Below are positions 8,990-44,801 of a stretch of DNA of 64,000 nt, piece after piece. Source of the DNA: Naegleria gruberi (Eukaryota). The notes below the pieces were generated by a model that saw nothing but the letters and a program-made list of their open reading frames with translations, was not told the DNA's origin and did no database searches. The DNA lies in assembly GCA_000004985.1 (NCBI GenBank), contig GG738851.1; one strand, given 5' to 3'. Within the stretch, counting starts at the first letter, position 1. Each line of letters begins with the position of its first letter. The translations under genes and the position numbers were made by a program.

Positions 8990-11989
8990 ATGTCCCAAGC
9001 AAATTCATTGAGCAATGAAGGTGGTGGTATCAGCAAAGATGTTAATCCACCTGTTGAAGATTTTCCGTCTGCCGAGGTGGAAGAGGAAGAATTTTACAAT
9101 TCATCATTTGATGATAGAAAACAAGTGAGTGGGAGAATTGAAGAACAACAACAACATGATGACGATAATCCAATTTTGATGACTATTCCATCATCAAATT
9201 ATGGATATTCCATCAATGATAATTCCGTTTCGCAACTACACCAACAACAACAAGGAGAAGAACAACAATTTAATTCTTCTTCGGCTACCATCCATGCCAA
9301 TAGTTGGAAAGAGAAAATTCAAGCTATGAGAGGAGGTGGTTGGAGAGAGTATTTCAATATTGTTTCGATTTGTTCCTTTCTGACTGTAACATTGTGTTTC
9401 GCTGCTGTTTCGTTTATTTTCTTGATTTATCCATTTGTGTATGTGAGAGATTTTTCACACACTTTGGTAGAAAGTTCACAAATCAAATTGCAACCATACT
9501 ATCCACTCGGTTATAAACCAAAAGGATATGTACCAAAGTTTTCTCAAGCAACCACCAAATTGACAGTTCCAGGAAATGCAAGATTCATAATGTTATCTTT
9601 TGTAGCAAATGCATCAGTGGAAGCTGTCGTTTTCAGAAATACTCTCACTTACTATAATCAATTCATTGATGCAACAGCTTTGAGTGCCTACTATACGAAT
9701 CAGACACAATTCATATTCGATAATCCTTTGGAAAGAAGCTTTTTTGTAATTTCAGAAAATTACTATGCAACCAGATTCTTTGCAACAAAGATTATGAATC
9801 ATACGAGTTTGGAGTTTGATAATTCTCCATTGAATAATGAAAACAAAACTGTGCTGTACATTGTTTGGAGAAATGAAAATTTAACTCCTCTCGAAAATAC
9901 CATTGTAATCGATTATTGGTACAGACTTGAATATGATGATTATAGGGAGACTACAAGTTTCACATTTGCCATGATTTCATTTGGTGCTTTTGTTCTTGCA
10001 GCTAGTTGTGTCTTGTTAAATACTCCAACAGTTTCTGGAATTTTCTCAATAGTTTACAATTTCTTGAGAAATTTACTATCATTCAAAAAACCTCTACCTG
10101 AAAATGGAGAGTGGAGTATTGATAATACTTTAGCACGAGGAGCTGACATTATTTTCCAAGATTTGTCATTTGTCTCATTCACAGATAAGGTAATTTTATA
10201 TCCAACAACTGGAATTTTGAAAGCTGGCAAGTTAACAGCAGTTATGGGTCAATCTGGTTCTTCAAAATCAACTTTTTGTAATGTTCTTTGTGGAAGAGCT
10301 TCCCATGGTATTCAGAAAGGAAAAGTCCTAATCAATGGAAATTCATTCTCTGGAAATACTAACAATTTAGTTGGATTTGTTACACAAGATGACATTATGT
10401 CTCCTCATTTAACTGTCAAGGAAACTTTGGAGTTTTCATGTAAGATTAGAAAGAATAAGAAGAATTCTGAAAAGGTCGAAGGTGTAATGCAAAAGTTAGG
10501 AATTACAAAAGTTCAAAATTCACAAACTTCAGTAATCAGTGGAGGTGAAAAAAGAAGAACATCAATTGGTATTGAAATGGTTGCAGACACACCAATTTAT
10601 ATTCTAGATGAACCTAGTTCTGGACTCGATTCAGAATCTGCTCTCTCCCTTTGTAAAACCCTTAGAGAAATAGCAGAAGAAAACAACTCGAATATTATTT
10701 GTGTTATCCATCAACCTTCATATGAAATATTGGAACAATTTCATGATATAATGCTGTTCAGGGAAGGTAGATTACTATTCCACAGTCCTGTACCAACTGT
10801 AATCCAATCACTCAAAGAGCATATCCCTTCTCATATTATTCGTAGCAATCCTGCTGATGAGATTTTGAGAACTCTTTCAACAGATTCTGTTGAAATTGTT
10901 AATTCCATTATCAAAAATACTGATCCAGCCATTCATTCCATTTCGAGAAAGCTCGAATTAGATTGGAAAGATATGAAAACTTCACCATTTTACATTCATT
11001 TCTATGCATGTTTTGTGAGAGCTGTCAAACAATTCTACAGAGATTGGAGAAATTTGATATTTGAAATTCTCATTTCCTTTGTTGTTGGTTTGCTTATTGG
11101 AGTATTATTTAATGGTCTTGAATTTATTGGAAGTGTTTCAAGTTCAAAATATAGCAAATGTCCAATAGAAATCAGAGCTGGTTGCATGCTTCCTCAATCG
11201 GATACGATTGCTCCATACTCATCTTTCCTCGTTTTGGCCATTGCATTGATATCTATAATGAGAGGTTTGAGAGTTTTTGGATTTGAAATTGAGAATTTCA
11301 AAAGAGAATCTCATGTAGGTCTCAATTCTTGGATGTACTTTTTATCGAAGGATTTGATTTCAATTTTTGTGATTGCTGTCATTTCTTTCAGTACTACATT
11401 TGGCATGTTATCTGCATTACCACATACTAACTTTTTCATTCTCTATGCCATTGTATTTCTAACAATTATGGCTGGTTTTCCAATTGGTTATACATTGTCA
11501 TTCTTCTTTGATCCACAAATAGCTCAATTGGCAGCTGCCTTAGTAGTTGTAGTATTTTACAGTTTTGGAGGAAATAATCCAACCATTCCTGAAATTGAAA
11601 AGCTTTCTCCAGTTCTTGCCTACAGTCACGTTATCACCTATTTTAGATATATTAGAGGTTTAATTTATATGGAAGAACTTATTACAAGAAGAGAAGATAA
11701 CGACATTGCATCAGCTCTTAAGGTGAATGGATATGAAATTGAAGCAATTTCATTCTACTTTTATGCTCTCTTCTTTTGGATTGTAGTTTTCAGGTATATG
11801 GCAGTATATTGTATGTGGGCTTGGAAACCTCGTTCTCTGTTCAGTAAGATTAATTTCCTATCAAGGAGATTGACTGGACGATTCTCTACCTGGTTTTCAA
11901 ATAAGATTGTTCAACCATTGAGAATGAAAATGAAAAGAAATAAGTATAAGGAAGTTGATAACTCTGAAGTAAATCCTTTCAAGCAATAA
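8990..11989 (+). CDS. ABCG (White-type) half transporter, 999 aa. The order is NBD then 6-TM TMD, preceded by a ~330-aa N-terminal extension that contains a Q/E-rich low-complexity head, one TM, a ~180-aa N-glycosylation-rich loop and a second TM.
   Basis: - Walker A: GQSGSSKST.
- ABC signature SGGEKRR, Walker B ILDEPSSGLD and an IHQPS motif typical of ABCG.
- Six C-terminal TM helices.
- N-extension helices are SICSFLTVTLCFAAVSFIFLIYPF and FAMISFGAFVLAASCVLL, flanking a loop with NAS/NQT/NHT/NKT/NLT sequons. Confidence 0.85.
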   Translation: MSQANSLSNEGGGISKDVNPPVEDFPSAEVEEEEFYNSSFDDRKQVSGRIEEQQQHDDDNPILMTIPSSNYGYSINDNSVSQLHQQQQGEEQQFNSSSATIHANSWKEKIQAMRGGGWREYFNIVSICSFLTVTLCFAAVSFIFLIYPFVYVRDFSHTLVESSQIKLQPYYPLGYKPKGYVPKFSQATTKLTVPGNARFIMLSFVANASVEAVVFRNTLTYYNQFIDATALSAYYTNQTQFIFDNPLERSFFVISENYYATRFFATKIMNHTSLEFDNSPLNNENKTVLYIVWRNENLTPLENTIVIDYWYRLEYDDYRETTSFTFAMISFGAFVLAASCVLLNTPTVSGIFSIVYNFLRNLLSFKKPLPENGEWSIDNTLARGADIIFQDLSFVSFTDKVILYPTTGILKAGKLTAVMGQSGSSKSTFCNVLCGRASHGIQKGKVLINGNSFSGNTNNLVGFVTQDDIMSPHLTVKETLEFSCKIRKNKKNSEKVEGVMQKLGITKVQNSQTSVISGGEKRRTSIGIEMVADTPIYILDEPSSGLDSESALSLCKTLREIAEENNSNIICVIHQPSYEILEQFHDIMLFREGRLLFHSPVPTVIQSLKEHIPSHIIRSNPADEILRTLSTDSVEIVNSIIKNTDPAIHSISRKLELDWKDMKTSPFYIHFYACFVRAVKQFYRDWRNLIFEILISFVVGLLIGVLFNGLEFIGSVSSSKYSKCPIEIRAGCMLPQSDTIAPYSSFLVLAIALISIMRGLRVFGFEIENFKRESHVGLNSWMYFLSKDLISIFVIAVISFSTTFGMLSALPHTNFFILYAIVFLTIMAGFPIGYTLSFFFDPQIAQLAAALVVVVFYSFGGNNPTIPEIEKLSPVLAYSHVITYFRYIRGLIYMEELITRREDNDIASALKVNGYEIEAISFYFYALFFWIVVFRYMAVYCMWAWKPRSLFSKINFLSRRLTGRFSTWFSNKIVQPLRMKMKRNKYKEVDNSEVNPFKQ

Positions 11990-12040: not shown

Positions 12041-14485
12041 TCATTTATTGTTGAAAAATTTAAAGAAATTCCAAGATTTGTTGTCTTTACAGTTTTTGTT
12101 AATGTATGTAATTAAATGTTGTTTACCCTTTTCCGTTGCATACTTTTGAACGAATTCTATGGATGCCCCTTTTTTAATGAGATTTTGAGCCCACTCGGCA
12201 CTGCCATTAATATCAGCCACAGTCACCAATGCACTGCTCAACACATTACTTGATAAATTGCAATTATTGAATATCCACTCAAAAATAATAGTATTTCTAT
12301 TCTCAATCGCAATCTCTAAAGGATAACCACAATCAATGCCTTGTTCTTCGTGAAAATGTGGATAGTTATTCGAATACCATTGAATTGCTGGAAGATATTC
12401 AAGGACACAAGCTCTATGAAGAGGACCATCAATATAGTACATGTCTTTTGTTAAGGATATTTTCTGGCCATCTATGTTAATAGTTTCTAATTTTGGAGTT
12501 GACTTCAAGGCATCAATTATTTTTCCATTTTCCTCAATAATAGCAATAAAATACAAGTATTTTAAATTATTTGATAATACTGAATTAGTATTTTTCACAT
12601 TAATATCTTCAAAATATTCCAATAAATTTGAATAATCAACATTGTCCAGTACGTCCAATAACTCTAAAACAGAAAATGATTTTACAGAAAATTCTTTAGC
12701 AATTCTGGTTAAATGTTCTGGTTCTTCTGATTTTTGTTGGTTGTAAGTAGTTGTGGCAATTTCAAACATTTGGTTATCATCCAATAGAGATGCAAAAGTC
12801 ACTTGTCTGATATAATTCTGTTGATATTGTTTTCTACACCAATTGATTCCAATTAGTGTTGTAGTAGAAGGAGCATTTTCAATCTTCAACTGATTCCTTA
12901 TTGAATCCAAGTCTATTGAAGGTCCATCACTAAAGGCAATAAATATAGTCTTTAAATGAGAGGGGAAATAGTTATTTGCTACCTGCAAACATGAATCTAG
13001 TAATGCTGGTTTCGAACAATCAATCAATAATATCATTGCTTTTGCATTTCTCATGTATGTTTCAAAAATAATTTTAAATCTTTCTTGTTCTGCTAAAAAC
13101 CAGCATATAAACTTATGATCAAAGCAACTAACTAACCTAAAATCAACACCAATCAGTGAGTGAGAATTCCTATAAATATTTAACGATTTTGTAATGTTTG
13201 TATGTGCCGGTGATCCATAGAATGTTGCCAAACATAAATGGTACACAGGTAATTCAATTGGCTTTTCGATAATGGTCTGATTTGCTTGTTGAATTAATTG
13301 TTCAATAGAGGGACGATCATTTGGTTGCAAGCTCATCATTTTCAATATTAGCTCAATGAGATGATCAGAATATTTCATACGTTGATATTTTACAAAATAA
13401 TCCTTCAATAACTTTGGATGTTTACACATTGAATTACATAGAGTTGATAAATCACGTGTCATTAAGTAATATAACGTGACACCTAATGCAAAAATGTCAG
13501 ATTGAGTAGAATATGGTTGTTTGATATCCAATATTTCATAATCAATAATTTCAGGTGCTAAATATTTAAATGTCCCACTCAATTGTGAAATTTCTGTTGA
13601 ACTATTGGTGTTAGTTTTTGCAAATCCAAAATCACTCAAACAAACTTGAATATTATCTTGTTTGGTATTAATGGATTTGATTAAAATGTTTGCAGGTTTA
13701 ATATCTTTGTGTATGATATTAAATTTTTGAATATGTTTTAATGCATTTCCCATTTGTTCTATAATTAGTAATATCATTTTTTCAGATGGAATGTTATTTG
13801 GATTTTTAATGAAATAATCGAATAAGTTTCCAAATTCTAAACAATCCATTTCAATACATAAAAAAGATTGATTGTTGCTAATGAAAGCAGTATGCACACG
13901 AATAATATTCTCATGTGATACCTTAACTGTTTGTATAGCCTCATGTAATGCTTGATTCATGTCAAATTCCAAAGATGGATATATTACTTTGACAGCTGCA
14001 ATACTTTGATTTTTTCTTTTCACTTGATAAACAATTCCGAATGCTCCACTTCCTAACTCGTTTATAATTGTTGAGTATCTATTTAATAATTCTTCTTTTA
14101 CATTTTTGCTATTATTATTCAAACTATTAATATTATTATTCAAACTATTAATATTATTATTCAAAGTATTATTATTATTAATATTAATATTATTTGAAGT
14201 ATTAGTAGTAGTTGTTGTATTTTCAAATTTCTTTATATTCTTGATCAAATTACAAATAGAATGAGCATGAATTGGTTTAATACCTAATTGAATAAGAGCC
14301 TGTTCATCGGAATAGAGAAGTGTAAAGCCTGTACATTCTTGTTCAATTAGTACTTATTGAAGTTATTAACTTGGATGAATAATTGTGAAAAACATACTGT
14401 CAACTACACTCTTGGGGCAACCATTCCGAAGTAGCCAATTACCCACCCGTTCTGTTGACCAAGAGGTAAAGTCATTGTCGTCCAT
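12041..14485 (-). CDS. Multidomain protein kinase, ~799 aa: SAM domain, poly-Asn linker, Ser/Thr kinase domain with HKD instead of HRD, a degenerate Rab/Ras-like GTPase domain, and C-terminal ankyrin-like repeats. Two exons: 14485..14398 and 14352..12041, with a 45-nt intron.
   Basis: - The ORF-track start at 14248 is a TTG, and the frame stays open upstream to a TAA with no ATG.
- Upstream there is ATGGACGACAATGAC… (14485) reading MDDNDFTSWSTERVGNWLLRNGCPKSVVD.
- A GTATGT donor (14397) and aataAG acceptor (14353) join it in frame.
- The product continues ILIEQECTGFTLLYSDEQALIQLGIKPIHAHSICNLIKN, which is SAM-like.
- Kinase motifs: GSGAFGIVY, AAVKVI, HKDIKPANILI, DFGFAK, GTFKYLAPE.
- The GTPase-like block (YGSPAHTN…GVDFRL…WFLAEQERF…LLIDCS) lacks the P-loop GK[ST] and DTAGQ.
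- A GPLHRAC motif is ankyrin-like.
- Total 2400 nt, divisible by 3. Confidence 0.8.
14111..14200. repeat. Imperfect ~30-nt tandem repeat (tattcaaactattaatattattat)n that encodes the poly-Asn/NNNINSL tract of the kinase.
   Basis: Direct reading shows caaactattaatattattattcaaactattaatattattattcaaagtattattattattaatattaatatt. On the coding (minus) strand this translates to NNNINSLNNNINSLNNN. Confidence 0.6.
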
Positions 14486-16787: not shown

Positions 16788-17765
16788 ATGATGACTATGA
16801 CTACAACTTCTCCACTGATGGTCTCATCAACAACTGCTAGTAATTCAACAACGACGCCAACGTCTGTATCACGTGCAAAAGACATTTCTACAATACCAAC
16901 AACAACAAACGATGATGATAGCCTGCTGTCCAAAAGTCTGGGACACTACAATCCTGCACAAGGAACAAATATGCCTCGTGGATCTTACCATGATATTAAA
17001 TCTAGATATTTCATGTCATTGAATCTGTCCTCACCACATAACACCACTCCCAAAACTCCTCCACAACAAACATCTCCATCCCTCCCAAATTCATCTGGTG
17101 TCATGAATACATCTGGTTCCCTCCTCACTAACAATATCAATAGAACCCAAAGAACGAGTAGCTTATCCTCCCAAATTACCAGACAAACTTCTCCTGGACA
17201 AAAACCTGAATCCAGAGAAAGAAGACAAACTTCCTATGATTTCAACAGACACTCAGAGGCTATTCCAATTCCTAGCAAAATGGCTGTACCAGTAGCTGCT
17301 GAAAGTCTAATGTATAATAATAATGGAACCTATGACCCATCAGTAGTTCCTAGTTTAATGACTGATGATTCAATGCCAATGATGTTCGATGGTGATTTTA
17401 GTTTTACTGATAGTAGCGAGAGTGGTAGTATTGATTTGTCACCTTTTTTCACTTCAAACACTCAATCCAATACTTCGTCCGTTGCTTCTTCCAAACAAAT
17501 TGCTAAACCAGGCAAATCCAATATGAAAGGAAGTGCCTTGAATCCAAATACTACCAAGAAGAGCGTCTCTATTAAGATAGAGACAACAACTTCTGCAGTT
17601 AAGGATTCATCAGTTTCTTCAACGGATTCTTCAGAATCCTCAGAAGAAAGATCCCCTCTCACGCCAAATAGAACTATCATTCCACCTCACTTAATGAACA
17701 ACCGTTCAGATTTCTCATTGTACAGACAACAACAAAAATATAATACTAAAGTTTATAAAATATAA
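16788..17765 (+). CDS. Ser/Thr/Pro-rich low-complexity protein, 325 aa, of unknown function.
   Basis: Long ORF with ATG in A-rich context (caacaacATGATG). Composition is dominated by S/T/N/P with no recognisable catalytic motif. Confidence 0.55.
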   Translation: MMTMTTTSPLMVSSTTASNSTTTPTSVSRAKDISTIPTTTNDDDSLLSKSLGHYNPAQGTNMPRGSYHDIKSRYFMSLNLSSPHNTTPKTPPQQTSPSLPNSSGVMNTSGSLLTNNINRTQRTSSLSSQITRQTSPGQKPESRERRQTSYDFNRHSEAIPIPSKMAVPVAAESLMYNNNGTYDPSVVPSLMTDDSMPMMFDGDFSFTDSSESGSIDLSPFFTSNTQSNTSSVASSKQIAKPGKSNMKGSALNPNTTKKSVSIKIETTTSAVKDSSVSSTDSSESSEERSPLTPNRTIIPPHLMNNRSDFSLYRQQQKYNTKVYKI

Positions 17766-17887
17766 ATAAACAGAGAAAAAGATAAATAATGATTCTAACC
17801 ATTGAGCAGTATTAATTCAAACCTAATCTTTCAATAATGATAAAGTGCATTTGTAGATTTAATATTGAATAGTATTACCAAATAAAA

Positions 17888-18007
17888 AAAGACTACAGCA
17901 CCACAGGTTCCCAAGTTGTCTCCAACCTCAGTACTGATGTGGCTCGACGATGCTTAACTTCTCAAATCGGACGGGATGAGGTGCATTCATCGTGATATGG
18001 CCGTAGC
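17888..18007 (-). rRNA. 5S ribosomal RNA gene, ~120 nt, transcribed on the minus strand and followed by a T7 RNA polymerase III terminator.
   Basis: - Minus-strand sequence GGCTACGGCCATATCACGATGAATGCACCTCATCCCGTCCGATTTGAGAAGTTAAGCATCGTCGAGCCACATCAGTACTGAGGTTGGAGACAACTTGGGAACCTGTGGTGCTGTAGTCTTTTTTT aligns along its length with eukaryotic 5S.
- Shared blocks include GCCTACGGCCATACCAC…CATCCCGTCCGATCTG.GAAGTTAAGCA…GTACT.GG.TGGGAGAC…TGGGAA.ACC.GGTGCTGTAGGCTT.
- The helix I ends pair: 5' GGCUACGGC with 3' GCUGUAGUC.
- It is a local GC-rich island in an intergenic interval. Confidence 0.85.
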
Positions 18008-18282
18008 CATTCACTTTCTTAAAATATGAAACAAAAAGGACAACGGGCCTACTTTCCAAAGGTTACAGGAGATAGAATTCATCTTAGCAACAAACTTCTT
18101 GAGATTTGCTTTTATTAAGAAAGAACGAAATGAGCAAACTTAAAGTTCGGTTGTCAAAACAATTAGATAATTTCCAGAAAAAACAAATCTAGCCAACATA
18201 TTTGATTTTTGGTTGAAACGAACAAGACTGGCGCCAAAAATCCAAACGTTAAGCGTTATTTTATTTTTTCAAACTACGAAAA

Positions 18283-19812
18283 ATGTCTCGAAAAGCCGTT
18301 GAGGATGTCATGAGAATTGAGGTAGAGATTATGGACGCCACCAGAGGCGTTTCAAATGCTCGACCTTCATCCTCTCATCACTCTACTAAAAACACCAACA
18401 ACAATACGAACAACAACAATAATCAACCTACAACAACAAGCTCTTCAAATCAACAAGCACAACAACAAACCGTTAATAATATTAATAATAATACTAACAA
18501 ACCTAAGGTTGTTCCTCCAAGGCTTGATCTGCAGCAACCTAGTATTACAAATCATCCGATTAATAGCAAATTTAATCAGAAATCACCTGTTCGTTCCTCA
18601 CGATCCTACACAAACTCTAATGAAATATATCCACCAATTGCTTCTAATGTAGATATTGTAACAAAAAAGTATACATATAATAGAAATACTAGTTCTACAT
18701 CACTTTTTGATAAAACACAAGCTCAATCAGCTCGTTTAAAAACTAAGGACACATTCAAGTCACCAAGATCAACGTATCAACAACAATCATCAAGACAACA
18801 AACAACCCAAAAAACTTCTCCTTTGAAATCTAGGTCCCCTCCAAAGGAAAGAAAACAATCATCTAGTATTGTATACTCACCACCAAAATCCAGAGATTCT
18901 TCAAGATCTCGGCCTCATTCAAGTCCTCCAGGAAGAAGATCAACAACTCCTAAACCAGTTAGAGATCATCCAAGCCATATAATCAATACAAATGTTCCTC
19001 TTTTCACACCTGGACCAGGAGCATATGAGGTTGATAAATCAAGCAAATACCTAAGACCATCCACTGCTATCTCAATGTCCAGAAATTCAAGATTCAAGGA
19101 AACCAAATTTGAAACACCTAGTCCTCATACCTATAATCCAGAAAAACCTTTGAAGAGGATGCCTTCTCCAAGATTTGGGTCGAGTAAGCGACCTGATTCT
19201 GCCAAGTCTGTCTCACCAGGCCCAATTTATGATGTTAATGATAATGCTCTCTCTAAAGTCAAAAACACACCTAGGTTCTCATTCCCATTATCTCCAAGAG
19301 ATTTGGATGTAGAAAATAGAACACCATCTCCAGGGACTTACTCACCGAATTATTCGGCAACAATGAGAAAGTCTGTAACTGTTGTCTTTCCAAAATCTCC
19401 AAAACAAGAAAGGACAAAATCAACAACACCTGGACCTGGAATTTATGATGTGCCAAGTGGGAACAAACAAAAGAAAGAACCAGCTTTTTCATTTGCAAAA
19501 TCTGAAAGACATTCTGACAAAAAGTCGGTGGTTGATAACCAATATGATGTTGCTTGGTCGTCGTTTTCACCCAAAGGCGTTTCAAAGTTTGGATCAACAA
19601 AACGTTTTTCATCACAGAAAAAGAATGATGTTCCTTTCCACCAAAGTCAGACAGAATGGAAAAAGACTCAGGCGGGTAAGTTTGGTAAGGACAGAAGGGC
19701 ATTAAATGATATTAACTCATCAAAATTAACTCCTGGGCCAGGATATTATCAACCTAATTATACAGTAACTCTTCCTTCATCCTCTAAACCAGTGCTGTAT
19801 CTGACAGGATAA
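18283..19812 (+). CDS. STPGR (sperm-tail PG-rich repeat) / ODF3-SHIPPO-like protein, 509 aa, with an N/Q-rich N-terminus.
   Basis: [ST]PGPGxY-type motifs recur: TPGPGAYEV, SPGPIYDV, SPGTYSP, TPGPGIYDV, TPGPGYYQP. SPRF/SPKG-type segments lie between them. The N-terminal tract is homopolymer-rich (NTNNNTNNNNNQPTTTSSSNQQAQQQ). Confidence 0.7.
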   Translation: MSRKAVEDVMRIEVEIMDATRGVSNARPSSSHHSTKNTNNNTNNNNNQPTTTSSSNQQAQQQTVNNINNNTNKPKVVPPRLDLQQPSITNHPINSKFNQKSPVRSSRSYTNSNEIYPPIASNVDIVTKKYTYNRNTSSTSLFDKTQAQSARLKTKDTFKSPRSTYQQQSSRQQTTQKTSPLKSRSPPKERKQSSSIVYSPPKSRDSSRSRPHSSPPGRRSTTPKPVRDHPSHIINTNVPLFTPGPGAYEVDKSSKYLRPSTAISMSRNSRFKETKFETPSPHTYNPEKPLKRMPSPRFGSSKRPDSAKSVSPGPIYDVNDNALSKVKNTPRFSFPLSPRDLDVENRTPSPGTYSPNYSATMRKSVTVVFPKSPKQERTKSTTPGPGIYDVPSGNKQKKEPAFSFAKSERHSDKKSVVDNQYDVAWSSFSPKGVSKFGSTKRFSSQKKNDVPFHQSQTEWKKTQAGKFGKDRRALNDINSSKLTPGPGYYQPNYTVTLPSSSKPVLYLTG

Positions 19813-19895: not shown

Positions 19896-21458
19896 TTAGT
19901 TTTGTTGCTTATAGATATCAGATGTGTCTCTCAACCAAAAAACATCATGAGTATCTACAGAGGTTTTGTAGAGTATTGCGTCTTGTCCTTGTGTAAGATT
20001 TGGTTTATAAACTCCTCTAAAGGCAACTGACATGTTATCACAAATTATGATATCTCCTTGCCTCCATTTATGTCTGAAAATTGGACCATTATCTAAATGA
20101 TTAATAAGACATTGATTGAATTGTTTACAACATGAACAACCCATTGTCTTAATCTTTGTTTCAGGCAAATTAATAGTATTGTTAATATCTGAAGGTGGTA
20201 ATTCACAAGTTTGACCAGAATTACACTCATCTGAGGATACCAAAAACCCTGAAAGAAGGCCAGTGTGCAAATACAAACTTTTCTTGGTTGTTACAGGGTG
20301 TTTTCTAACCAAAGGTTGAATAGCCGTACTTGTTGGTCCTTTGACAATACTGAAAACTTTGCCAGTCTTTTCCTTGACCTTGTCTTCCATTCTTTCATAT
20401 GCCAGTTGTAGGTCAGTAAACAAAATTTCCTCTTCCTTATTACAGAAAGCTGCATTCCAAACTGTAATAGGAGTAGGATGAACCTCATGACGATATGACC
20501 CATCACAATTCCAATAAAAGAAATTGCCTGCAGCAAATGTTGGTTTGTCAATGTTATAAGTTGTCACATTTGGTGGGTTATTAACAAAGGAAGAAGGAGA
20601 CATTGGCATTGGAGAAAAGGCAGAATCTGATTTCATTGGAGAGTATGGTGTTTGATATTGCATTTGATTTTGATTTGGCATTTGATTTTGGTAAGGTTGA
20701 ACGCTTTGGGAAGATGGTGAGTAACTTTGATAATTAGAAGTGAATGAGGATTGGAATGAAGAACCATAGTTTTGATTTTGGTAAGAAGGAGGCGAGTTAA
20801 ACTTTTGAGGAGAATTGTACATATTTTGTTGTGGAAGTTGTTGTGGGAGTTGTTGTGGTATTTGATATGGTGAATATTGTTGCATTTGAGTGTTACTATT
20901 TGGAGGTTGAGGAGAAATATTAGAAGGTTGAGGAGAAACAGGGCAAGCTGACATTAATGCACATTTCGATAACACTCTTTGATTTGCAAGAGAATATGAT
21001 GATGAAACTACTTTCCAAATATCAGGATGTCCAGGAATAATAGTGTCCAGCTCATCATTCCAAATTTTCTCATACTGATTCACAGGATATGGATATCTAC
21101 AAGTTTCTCCAAAAAGTTTTTCACAAAATTGTGTCTGTTCTTTTGGTGAAAGTGGTTTCTGACATCTGAAAAGCAGTAAATGGTGTTCAACCAAAGCTCT
21201 TCTAATTTCAATTATTTCATTATCATTCAAATTAGCACCGCCACAAGTAATATCAACATTCAAAATCTCTCTTCCGAATGGTAATGCTTGTGGATAATTT
21301 GAAGATATTATACTACTAGGATTTGAATTACAGCAACCAGAACCACTAGGAGTAGTACCAGGTGAGCCGTATAATTTTCTATATTGAATTCTACTCTTAC
21401 CATCTTGTTTGTTAAAGATGGATGAAAGTGAACAAAAGCACTGTCCAAGGCAAGGCAT
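19896..21458 (-). CDS. TauD/TfdA-family Fe(II)/2-oxoglutarate dioxygenase homologue, 520 aa, with both metal-ligand histidines replaced. It is a likely pseudo-enzyme and carries an internal Q/N/Y/S/P-rich low-complexity (prion-like) insert.
   Basis: - ATG at 21458.
- N-terminal TauD-like block: REILNVDITCGG…EIRRALVEHHLLLFRCQKPLSPKEQTQFCEKLFGE.
- C-terminal block: FYWNCDGSY where the family has WHxD.
- PLVRKHPVTTKKSLYLHTG matches TauD PVVRxHPETGRKSLF.
- WRQGDIIICDNMSVAFRG, where the family has …WDNRxxxHRA (His→Phe).
- Between them is a ~110-aa tract, QQLPQQLPQQNMYNSPQKFNSPPSYQNQNYGSSFQSS…. Confidence 0.7.
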   Translation of the reverse strand: MPCLGQCFCSLSSIFNKQDGKSRIQYRKLYGSPGTTPSGSGCCNSNPSSIISSNYPQALPFGREILNVDITCGGANLNDNEIIEIRRALVEHHLLLFRCQKPLSPKEQTQFCEKLFGETCRYPYPVNQYEKIWNDELDTIIPGHPDIWKVVSSSYSLANQRVLSKCALMSACPVSPQPSNISPQPPNSNTQMQQYSPYQIPQQLPQQLPQQNMYNSPQKFNSPPSYQNQNYGSSFQSSFTSNYQSYSPSSQSVQPYQNQMPNQNQMQYQTPYSPMKSDSAFSPMPMSPSSFVNNPPNVTTYNIDKPTFAAGNFFYWNCDGSYRHEVHPTPITVWNAAFCNKEEEILFTDLQLAYERMEDKVKEKTGKVFSIVKGPTSTAIQPLVRKHPVTTKKSLYLHTGLLSGFLVSSDECNSGQTCELPPSDINNTINLPETKIKTMGCSCCKQFNQCLINHLDNGPIFRHKWRQGDIIICDNMSVAFRGVYKPNLTQGQDAILYKTSVDTHDVFWLRDTSDIYKQQN

Positions 21459-43744: not shown

Positions 43745-44801
43745 ATGTTGTTAACATTACAAGAGCTTTACAAATATTTAAGGTGCAATAATGAAAAAGA
43801 CCAAGAATTAAAAAAAATGATCAAACTAAACAGTCAAAATTTTGAAAATCACCAATTCATTAATTCGGAGGAAATATTCAATAATAATATTAATAATATG
43901 GAAGAGAAAGCAATAAAGCTTGTGAAACTCGAACAAGAAATATTTTCAGATGATATTTGTTTTGAAATAATTTCAATGCTGGATGATTCGTGGTTTATTT
44001 TGAATAATTGTTCCTTGATTTCAAAACAATTCTTTAACGTGATCAAGGAACGTTCAAAACTTTTTATTATATTTAAAAAGAAATTTACAGAGAAACGAGT
44101 TGAATTATTCATGAAAAGTCGATTTTTAAACAGTATTGTTAATGTTAAATTTGCAGCAAAGTTGTCTGAAGCCAAAGAAAAACTCAAATTCATTGATATA
44201 ACTTGTGAAATGAAACAATTAACATCACTTAATATTTCTCACCATCTAATTGGTATAGAAGGAGCTAAATTCATAAGTAAAATGAAACAATTAACATCAC
44301 TTGATATTGATTACAATCATATTGGTGTTGAAGGAGCAATATTTATAAGTGAAATGAAACAATTAATATTACTTGATATTCGTAGCAATCTAATTGGTAT
44401 GGAAGGAGCCAAATTCATAAGTAAAATGAAACAATTAACATCACTTAATATTGATTACAATCATATTGGTGATGAAGGAGCAAATGAAACAATTGACATC
44501 GCTTGATATGTATGACAATCAAATTGGTGATGAAGGAGCCAAATACATTAGTGAAATGAAACAATTAACATCACTCAATATTTGTTTCAATCATATTGGT
44601 ATAGAAGGATCCAAATTGATAAGTGAAATGAAACAATTAATATTACTTGATATTAGTGGCAATCTAATTGGTGATGAAGGAGCAAAATATATCAGTGAAA
44701 TGAAACAATTGACATCACTTGATATTAGTGGCAATCAAATTGGTGATGAAGGAGCCAACTACATTAGTGAAATGAAACAATTGACATCACTAAGAAAATA
44801 A
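43745..44801 (+). pseudogene. RI-type LRR protein gene built from ≥13 tandem 72-nt (24-aa) repeats (MKQLTSL[DN]I..N.IG.EGAK[FY]IS.). It is split into two overlapping ORFs by a 13-nt deletion inside one repeat (~44480). This is either a frameshifted pseudogene or an assembly/sequencing error in the repeat array.
   Basis: - ORFs 43745..44506 and 44451..44801 are in different frames.
- Every other unit reads ggagc(m)aaat(w)cat(w)agtgaaatgaaacaatt(r)acatcact.
- The broken unit reads ggagcaaatgaaacaattgacatcgctt, missing ~13 nt (aatatatcagtga). Confidence 0.6.

What the first reader, a model, noticed from the sequence alone, without database searches (positions are those of the whole stretch)
17888..18007. 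Solitary 5S rRNA gene embedded between protein-coding genes
A full-length 5S rRNA on the minus strand, with a T7 Pol III terminator, sits in the 500-bp interval between an S/T-rich protein gene and the STPGR gene. In dictyostelids 5S is on the extrachromosomal rDNA palindrome, and in many protists it is in tandem arrays or linked to SL/rDNA units. A dispersed single-copy-looking 5S here is therefore informative about rDNA organisation and the organism's identity. It was invisible to the ORF track.
Basis: seen in the sequence. Interest (0 to 1): 0.6.

Follow-up and report, generated by a model that had tools for sequence, protein, structure and literature searches.

The report
Ordinary dispersed 5S rRNA gene, Naegleria
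This is a genuine, intact 5S ribosomal RNA gene, but the window comes from the amoeboflagellate Naegleria gruberi, where about 280 such genes are already known to lie scattered among protein-coding genes, so it is an ordinary member of a known family.

Summary
Rfam RF00001 matches window 17890-18008 (minus strand) end to end at 105.4 bits (gathering score 38, E = 4e-22). The RNA folds into the three-way junction. It has an exact box A, a near-consensus box C and a T7 terminator. It is the only 5S or rRNA element in the 64 kb.

The neighbouring TauD-like ORF is 100% identical to a Naegleria gruberi protein, so this is a heterolobosean and not a dictyostelid.

Naegleria carries 18S/5.8S/28S on an extrachromosomal circular plasmid without 5S. 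Feng et al. 2012 (PMC3369914) listed 279 putative 5S genes in N. gruberi. By my count from their Table S1, these lie on 117 scaffolds with a median spacing of 34 kb.

A lone 5S between two Pol II genes is therefore the expected arrangement, and it is not single-copy.

One modest addition: the flanking genes (S/T-rich, STPGR, TauD) are orthologous and adjacent in N. fowleri and N. lovaniensis, but the gap there is 105-140 bp with no 5S. A second 5S site (metagenome contig L006) is likewise empty in relatives. 5S positions therefore turn over between species while the sequence stays almost fixed.

Already known; low interest.

The parts
17890..18008 (-). 5S rRNA gene, 119 nt, full length
   Evidence: RF00001 at 105.4 bits (GA 38), model 1-120. 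Three-way junction fold. 118/119 identical to a metagenomic Naegleria-type copy (L006). Differs at 5 positions from the N. lovaniensis copy, all at paired positions and all keeping the pair.
17884..17890 (-). Run of seven T residues: putative RNA polymerase III terminator, overlapping the last nucleotide of the gene
   Evidence: Read directly from the sequence. The N. lovaniensis copy ends in T6 and the L006 copy in T4. Its terminator function is inferred from established Pol III biology.
17945..17959 (-). Box A of the internal control region (+50 to +64, AGTTAAGCATCGTCG)
   Evidence: 0 mismatches to the box A consensus N(G/C)(C/T)(C/T)AANCNNNNNNN quoted in PMC3369914. Factor binding was not tested.
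17912..17929 (-). Box C of the internal control region (+80 to +97, GAGGTTGGAGACAACTTG)
   Evidence: 2 mismatches to the box C consensus NNG(G/A)TGGGNG(T/A)CCN(C/T)NNG. Function is inferred.
18019..18027 (-). A/T-rich TATA-like stretch (ATATTTTAA, -19 to -11): a possible upstream promoter element
   Evidence: Read from the sequence. PMC3369914 reports a TATA box upstream of N. gruberi 5S genes. With only three copies compared, conservation is weak: A/T-richness and a shared AT at -2/-1. Not demonstrated.
16788..17765 (+). Upstream neighbour: S/T-rich protein gene, convergent with the 5S. Its stop is 124 bp from the 5S 3' end.
   Evidence: ORF. 56% identical over its full length to the N. fowleri gene in the same position.
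18283..19812 (+). Downstream neighbour: STPGR/SHIPPO-repeat protein gene, divergent from the 5S. Its ATG is 274 bp from the 5S 5' end.
   Evidence: ORF. PF07004. 48% and 46% identical to the N. lovaniensis and N. fowleri orthologues.
19896..21458 (-). TauD-like dioxygenase gene: context, and the marker that identifies the species
   Evidence: 100% identity and coverage to 'taurine dioxygenase [Naegleria gruberi]'. 61% and 60% to N. lovaniensis and N. fowleri.

Best explanation
This is one intact member of the dispersed nuclear 5S rRNA gene family of Naegleria gruberi. It is a self-contained RNA polymerase III unit. Transcription starts at or near window 18008 on the minus strand. It is directed by the type-1 internal control region (box A at +50-64, box C at +80-97), possibly helped by an A/T-rich element about 15 bp upstream, and it ends in the T7 run at 17884-17890. 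The 119-nt product folds into the canonical three-way junction and is built into the large ribosomal subunit. Because the promoter lies mainly inside the gene, a copy can work wherever it lands. This is why copies sit singly in short intergenic regions of this gene-dense genome, apart from the 18S/5.8S/28S genes on the extrachromosomal plasmid.

Shown here: the identity and integrity of the gene, the species, its isolation within 64 kb, and the absence of a 5S from the orthologous gap in two sister species.

Inferred: that this particular copy is transcribed, which factors bind it, and how it came to this site.
For: - Gene call: RF00001 at 105.4 bits, full length; canonical fold; exact box A, box C with 2 mismatches, T7 run.
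- Selection on structure: against the N. lovaniensis 5S (L002 3155-3273, 104.9 bits) there are only 5 differences. All are at paired positions and all keep the pair. Two are fully compensatory (68-107 C-G to U-A, 69-106 A-U to G-C) and one is G-U to G-C at 2-117. Meanwhile the neighbouring proteins are only 46-61% identical and the intergenic DNA cannot be aligned.
- Species: TauD ORF 100% identical to the N. gruberi protein.
- Family context: 279 putative 5S genes in N. gruberi, not linked to the rDNA, with ICR and TATA box (PMC3369914). From its Table S1: 117 scaffolds, median same-scaffold spacing 33.9 kb, only 1 of 162 gaps under 1 kb.
- rDNA: the Naegleria plasmids carry 18S, 5.8S and 28S only (PMC12482156).
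- Other solo copies next to protein genes, with unrelated flanks: L002 in N. lovaniensis and L006 in a metagenome.
Against: - Nothing here shows that this individual copy is expressed.
- Dispersed 5S families elsewhere contain many pseudogenes: 18-83% in filamentous fungi (Rooney and Ward 2005, as cited in PMC5555474). The N. gruberi list also includes truncated, low-similarity entries.
- Box C departs from the consensus at two positions.
- PMC3369914 found no TFIIIA in N. gruberi, so the textbook TFIIIA-dependent route may not apply as such.
- The upstream element is not convincingly conserved across the three copies I could compare.
Confidence: 0.9

Rival explanations
1. It is a silent copy: a young, sequence-intact pseudogene or retro-copy of 5S that lacks whatever upstream context Naegleria Pol III needs and contributes no RNA to ribosomes.
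For: Dispersed 5S families elsewhere hold many pseudogenes. The N. gruberi list includes truncated and low-similarity members. The upstream region shows no strongly conserved motif across three copies. The site is empty in two sister species, so the copy could be recent.
Against: The gene is full length with every helix intact, an exact box A and a T7 terminator. It is 118/119 identical to an independent copy in a different genomic context (L006). A decaying copy would be expected to carry non-compensated changes, and none is seen.
Confidence: 0.07
2. It is the head of a 5S-derived mobile element (SINE-like or LTR-borne, as in SINE3 or Cassandra) and not a ribosomal RNA gene.
For: The position is lineage-specific. 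5S-derived retroelements exist in other eukaryotes (for example Cassandra, listed).
Against: Similarity between copies stops at the T run and starts at +1. There is no 3' body, tail or terminal repeat. The 517-bp intergenic sequence has no other copy in the window. The RNA matches the whole 5S model, not just the promoter half.
Confidence: 0.02
3. It is an artefact: an organellar or bacterial 5S, or a misassembled or contaminant insert.
For: None found. Considered only because the independent metagenome contig L001 stops 17 nt short of the gene.
Against: The flanks are Naegleria nuclear genes in conserved order. L001, an independent assembly, contains the sequence from -18 upstream of the 5S onward, up to and through the STPGR gene. 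The gene is nearly identical to the nuclear 5S of N. lovaniensis. GC content across the region is uniform.
Confidence: 0.01

Closest known systems
The N. gruberi 5S rRNA gene set described by Feng et al. 2012 (PLoS One 7:e36878, PMC3369914)
   Same: Same species. Same gene length class (117-120 nt entries in Table S1). Internal control region and upstream A/T-rich element as reported. Unlinked to the rDNA. The window copy is almost certainly one of the 279 listed loci.
   Different: I could not map the window to a scaffold coordinate in their table, because the N. gruberi assembly was out of reach of the locus tools. Their Table 1 scores the arrangement as 'tandem'. Their own coordinates instead show scattered single genes and loose clusters: median gap 34 kb, and only 1 of 162 gaps under 1 kb.
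Dispersed 5S rRNA genes of Neurospora crassa and other filamentous fungi (Selker et al. 1981 Cell 24:819; Rooney and Ward 2005; both as cited in PMC5555474)
   Same: Tens to hundreds of solitary Pol III 5S genes scattered among Pol II genes, with unrelated flanks and positional turnover (the birth-and-death pattern).
   Different: A different eukaryotic supergroup. In fungi the large rDNA is chromosomal and tandem; in Naegleria it is on a plasmid. The fungal families show several sequence classes and many pseudogenes. The few Naegleria copies seen here are almost identical to one another.
Dictyostelium discoideum 5S on the extrachromosomal rDNA palindrome
   Same: Both organisms keep their large rRNA genes on an extrachromosomal element.
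   Different: In Naegleria the plasmid carries only 18S, 5.8S and 28S and the 5S genes are chromosomal and dispersed. The window is not from a dictyostelid.
Tandem 5S rDNA arrays of most animals, plants and trypanosomatids
   Same: The same RNA, the same type-1 internal promoter logic and the same T-run terminator.
   Different: There is no head-to-tail repeat here: one copy in 64 kb, and no repeated spacer.

Membership tests
5S rRNA (Rfam RF00001) | Covariance-model score at or above the curated gathering score, over the full model | tested here: met
   105.4 bits against GA 38; model 1-120/120; E = 4.4e-22
5S rRNA (Rfam RF00001) | Three-way junction with helices I-V, about 120 nt long | tested here: met
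   119 nt. The MFE, centroid and three-sequence consensus folds all give helix I plus two arms. 39 pairs, 2 of them with compensatory changes.
Eukaryotic nuclear 5S gene (Pol III type 1 unit) | Internal control region: box A, intermediate element, box C | tested here: inconclusive
   Box A is an exact match at +50-64. Box C has 2 mismatches at +80-97. The loose intermediate-element pattern matches only at +61-66 and +78-83, not at the classical +67-72. These are consensus matches only; binding was not tested, and TFIIIA was reported as not found in N. gruberi.
Eukaryotic nuclear 5S gene (Pol III type 1 unit) | Run of four or more T residues immediately after the gene | tested here: met
   T7 at 17884-17890. 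T6 and T4 in the two other copies.
Eukaryotic nuclear 5S gene (Pol III type 1 unit) | Transcribed, and the RNA incorporated into the 60S subunit | not testable with these tools
   No expression data were available.
Dispersed (non-tandem, rDNA-unlinked) 5S gene family | No 18S/5.8S/28S gene and no second 5S nearby | tested here: met
   The 5S is the only Rfam gathering-level hit in 64 kb. There is no blastn copy or fragment in the window.
Dispersed (non-tandem, rDNA-unlinked) 5S gene family | Many copies elsewhere in the same genome, with unrelated flanks | tested here: inconclusive
   Supported by published coordinates only: 279 loci on 117 scaffolds. The only extra copy I could fetch (L006) has unrelated flanks, but it comes from an unnamed Naegleria-clade organism and could not be shown to be N. 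gruberi itself. The N. gruberi assembly could not be searched here.
5S-derived SINE / retroelement | A 5S-like head followed by an unrelated body or tail, repeated with target-site duplications | tested here: not met
   Similarity to the other copies ends at the T run. The flanks are unique in the window.

The most novel reading that the evidence does not exclude
5S genes in Naegleria behave as mobile, self-sufficient Pol III units. This copy was inserted into the S/T-rich-STPGR spacer in the N. gruberi lineage after it split from N. fowleri and N. lovaniensis, by retroposition of a 5S transcript or by reintegration of a DNA fragment. The whole family of about 280 copies is kept nearly identical by rapid birth-and-death turnover with strong purifying selection, possibly transcribed without a classical TFIIIA. 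My evidence shows empty orthologous sites at two of two testable loci. It cannot tell gain from loss and says nothing about mechanism.
Probability: 0.3. Interest if true: 0.35.

Novelty: already known. Interest (0 to 1): 0.1.

Why it matters
It matters little beyond correct annotation. The gene should be labelled as a 5S rRNA gene of N. gruberi, and the window should be recognised as Naegleria and not dictyostelid.

The one point of some use to specialists is that 5S positions are not conserved between Naegleria species although the flanking genes are. Together with the published coordinates, this says the family is scattered and turning over, and is not arrayed in tandem. That could make Naegleria a convenient protist system for studying how internal-promoter Pol III genes spread, and for re-examining the reported absence of TFIIIA.

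Tried and rejected
- Exact-match look-ups of window proteins, meant to reach the N. gruberi assembly and map the gene onto the published Table S1 coordinates, all failed. I therefore could not say which of the 279 loci this is, or fetch paralogous N. gruberi copies.
That is too few copies to define an upstream promoter motif.
- L006's neighbouring gene did not match an N. gruberi protein (best named hits Willaertia 52% and N. lovaniensis 58%), so L006 cannot be claimed as a same-genome paralogue.
- Orthologous ABHD11-like loci in N. fowleri, N. lovaniensis and W. magna yielded no further 5S copies.
- I looked for target-site duplications or sharp insertion boundaries by aligning the intergenic region across species. 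Outside about 100 bp next to the STPGR ATG the sequences cannot be aligned, so no boundary can be drawn. The apparent MAFFT alignment of L001 to the 5S body is spurious.
- The N. gruberi genome paper (Cell 2010) is not held. A second literature search was not specific to Naegleria.
- Rejected: dictyostelid origin, tandem array, SINE or mobile-element head, contaminant or organellar 5S.

Full report

Yes. A scan of the whole window against Rfam 15 at gathering thresholds gives exactly one hit. It is RF00001 (5S rRNA) at 17890..18008 on the minus strand, at 105.4 bits against a gathering score of 38, E = 4.4e-22. It covers model positions 1-120 and is not truncated.

On its own the 119-nt RNA folds into the three-way junction. 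The MFE and centroid structures are identical at -41.5 kcal/mol, with z = -2.6 against dinucleotide shuffles.

The gene is followed by seven T residues (17884-17890), and the first of them is the last nucleotide of the Rfam match. I tested the consensus patterns quoted in PMC3369914. Box A matches exactly at +50-64 (AGTTAAGCATCGTCG). Box C matches with two mismatches at +80-97. The very loose intermediate-element pattern does not fall at the classical position.

The gene sits in a 517-bp gap between two ORFs:
- a 325-aa S/T-rich ORF (16788-17765, +), convergent with the 5S, whose stop is 124 bp from the 5S 3' end;
- a 509-aa STPGR/SHIPPO-repeat ORF (18283-19812, +; PF07004), divergent from the 5S, whose ATG is 274 bp from the 5S 5' end.

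The window holds no tRNA. blastn at word size 7 finds no other 5S copy or fragment and no repeat of the intergenic sequence.

**2. What organism, and what is known about it?**

- The STPGR ORF's best named relatives are N. lovaniensis (48%) and N. fowleri (46%).
- The next gene, a TauD-like ORF (19896-21458, -), is 100% identical over 100% of its length to 'taurine dioxygenase [Naegleria gruberi]', recorded on a 693,645-bp contig.
- GC content is 29-39% along the window, in line with the 33-37% quoted for Naegleria genomes (PMC12482156).

The window is therefore N. gruberi nuclear DNA and not dictyostelid.

In Naegleria the 18S, 5.8S and 28S genes are carried only on a circular extrachromosomal plasmid. 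The plasmids described encode those three genes and no 5S (PMC12482156).

Feng et al. 2012 (PMC3369914) searched the N. gruberi genome by BLASTn. They reported 279 putative 5S genes, not located with the rDNA units, with an internal control region and an upstream TATA box. They did not find TFIIIA.

I transcribed their Table S1 and computed the layout:
- 279 loci lie on 117 scaffolds, and 57 scaffolds carry a single copy.
- Among 162 same-scaffold gaps the median is 33.9 kb and the minimum is 462 bp.
- Only 1 gap is under 1 kb, 22 are under 3 kb and 42 are under 10 kb.

That is a scattered family with some loose clusters, not classical head-to-tail arrays, although the paper's Table 1 ticks 'tandem'. 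One caveat: many copies lie on very small scaffolds, so some collapsed arrays cannot be ruled out from this table alone.

One 5S in a 64-kb window is what this distribution predicts.

**3. Evidence that the gene is under selection**

N. lovaniensis has a solitary 5S (L002 3155-3273, 104.9 bits) about 7 kb from its STPGR orthologue, between an NDUFA5-like and a rhomboid/DER1-like gene.

The two species' 5S sequences differ at five positions only. All five are at base-paired positions and all keep the pair:
- 68-107 changes from C-G to U-A;
- 69-106 changes from A-U to G-C;
- 2-117 changes from G-U to G-C.

By contrast, the neighbouring proteins are only 46-61% identical, and the intergenic DNA cannot be aligned.

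A third copy came from a JGI metagenome contig (L006 539-657, 106.3 bits). It is 118/119 identical to the window copy, ends in T4, and lies 165 bp upstream of a divergent ABHD11-like hydrolase gene. Its flanks are unrelated to those in the window.

Similarity among the three copies begins at about +1 and ends in the T run. Upstream I see only A/T-richness and a shared AT at -2/-1. The window has ATATTTTAA at -19 to -11. Three copies are too few to define a motif.

**4. Position is not conserved**

The gene order S/T-rich, then STPGR, then TauD (on the opposite strand) is kept in N. lovaniensis (L002) and N. fowleri (L003-L005). The S/T-rich gene is 56% identical over its full length to the N. 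fowleri gene in that position.

In those species the gap between the S/T-rich stop and the STPGR ATG is only 105 and 140 bp. No 5S is found there at gathering threshold.

The 100 bp or so next to the ATG can be aligned across the three species. The extra 400 bp or so in N. gruberi, including the 5S, lies between that block and the S/T-rich stop.

The orthologues of L006's hydrolase gene in N. fowleri (L007, L008), Willaertia magna (L009) and N. lovaniensis (L010) likewise have no 5S within up to 10 kb on either side.

So both sites I could test are occupied in one lineage and empty in others. Without an informative outgroup at this locus I cannot say whether this is a gain in the N. gruberi line or a loss in the N. 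fowleri/lovaniensis line. No insertion boundary or target-site duplication can be recognised at this level of divergence.

An independent metagenome assembly (L001, from a close N. gruberi relative with a 100% identical STPGR protein) begins 18 nt upstream of the 5S start. It shares the upstream spacer apart from a 127-bp indel. This supports the local assembly but does not reach the gene.

**5. How it most likely works**

Shown:
- an intact 5S gene with box A, a box C-like element and a T7 run;
- its isolation from other rRNA genes;
- membership of a species whose 5S genes are many and scattered.

Inferred from established Pol III biology:
- The internal control region recruits the Pol III machinery. 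TFIIIC and TFIIIB subunits were reported present in N. gruberi, and TFIIIA was not found.
- Transcription starts at about 18008 and stops in the T run.
- The RNA joins the 60S subunit through the L5 protein.

An internal promoter explains why single copies function in arbitrary intergenic sites. I put 0.9 on 'intact member of the known dispersed 5S family'. Within that, I think it likely but unproven that this copy is active.

Rivals:
- silent young pseudogene, 0.07;
- head of a 5S-derived mobile element, 0.02;
- artefact or contaminant, 0.01.

**6. Comparison with what is known, and verdict**

The closest match is the N. gruberi 5S set of Feng et al. 2012, of which this is almost certainly one entry.

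In organisation it resembles the dispersed 5S genes of Neurospora crassa and other filamentous fungi (Selker et al. 1981; Rooney and Ward 2005; both cited in PMC5555474).

The finding is a correct annotation of an ordinary, already described kind of gene: novelty 'already known', interest about 0.1. The only small additions are the cross-species empty sites, the compensatory substitutions, and the observation that the published coordinates contradict the 'tandem' label.

Noticed in passing
window 18230-18240 (minus-strand TTTTTGGCGCC; + strand GGCGCCAAAAA), 43-53 bp upstream of the STPGR ATG; also L002 about 9964-9975 and L003 about 9968-9978: A GGCGCCAAAA-type motif followed by CC(A)NACG(G)TT is one of the few intergenic stretches conserved upstream of the STPGR gene in N. 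gruberi, N. lovaniensis and (as CCGCCAAAA) N. fowleri. From memory it resembles an E2F-type site (TTTSGCGC). It may be a promoter element of this putative flagellar gene.
   Followed up: no
L001 43-169, against the window junction 18067/18068 (59-60 bp upstream of the 5S start): The metagenome contig from a close N. gruberi relative (STPGR protein 100% identical) has 127 bp that the window lacks, inside the 5S-STPGR spacer. That contig also ends 17 nt short of the 5S. I saw no obvious terminal inverted repeats, and the direction (insertion or deletion) is unknown.
   Followed up: partly
PMC3369914, Table 1 against Table S1 (N. gruberi scaffolds): The paper scores N. gruberi 5S genes as tandemly arranged. 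Its own coordinates give a median spacing of 34 kb, with only one pair under 1 kb apart. Loose clusters spaced 2-3 kb apart exist (for example scaffold_12 at 420-427 kb and scaffold_41 at 297-303 kb).
   Followed up: yes
L002 3155-3273 (-) and L002 4824-4895 (-); L003 4067-4138 (-): N. lovaniensis has a solo 5S between an NDUFA5-like and a rhomboid/DER1-like gene. A tRNA gene just upstream of the TGT (queuine tRNA-ribosyltransferase) gene is kept in both N. lovaniensis and N. fowleri, but the N. gruberi window has no tRNA at all.
   Followed up: partly
window 44205-44791: A tandem repeat with a 72/144-nt period, about 8 copies, 73-79% matching. The unit reads as a leucine-rich-repeat-like coding unit (my reading of the consensus; not checked against Pfam).
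   Followed up: no
window 14110-14192, within ORF 12041-14248 (-): A 21-nt tandem repeat encoding the N-rich 'NNNINSL' low-complexity N-terminus of a 735-aa ORF that looks kinase-like.
   Followed up: no
(tool behaviour): The exact-sequence look-up failed when the STPGR protein was given as a window DNA reference, but succeeded for the 100%-identical, same-length protein id P0001. N. gruberi NCBI proteins (P0006) were not found at all. A negative look-up is therefore not evidence of absence.
   Followed up: partly
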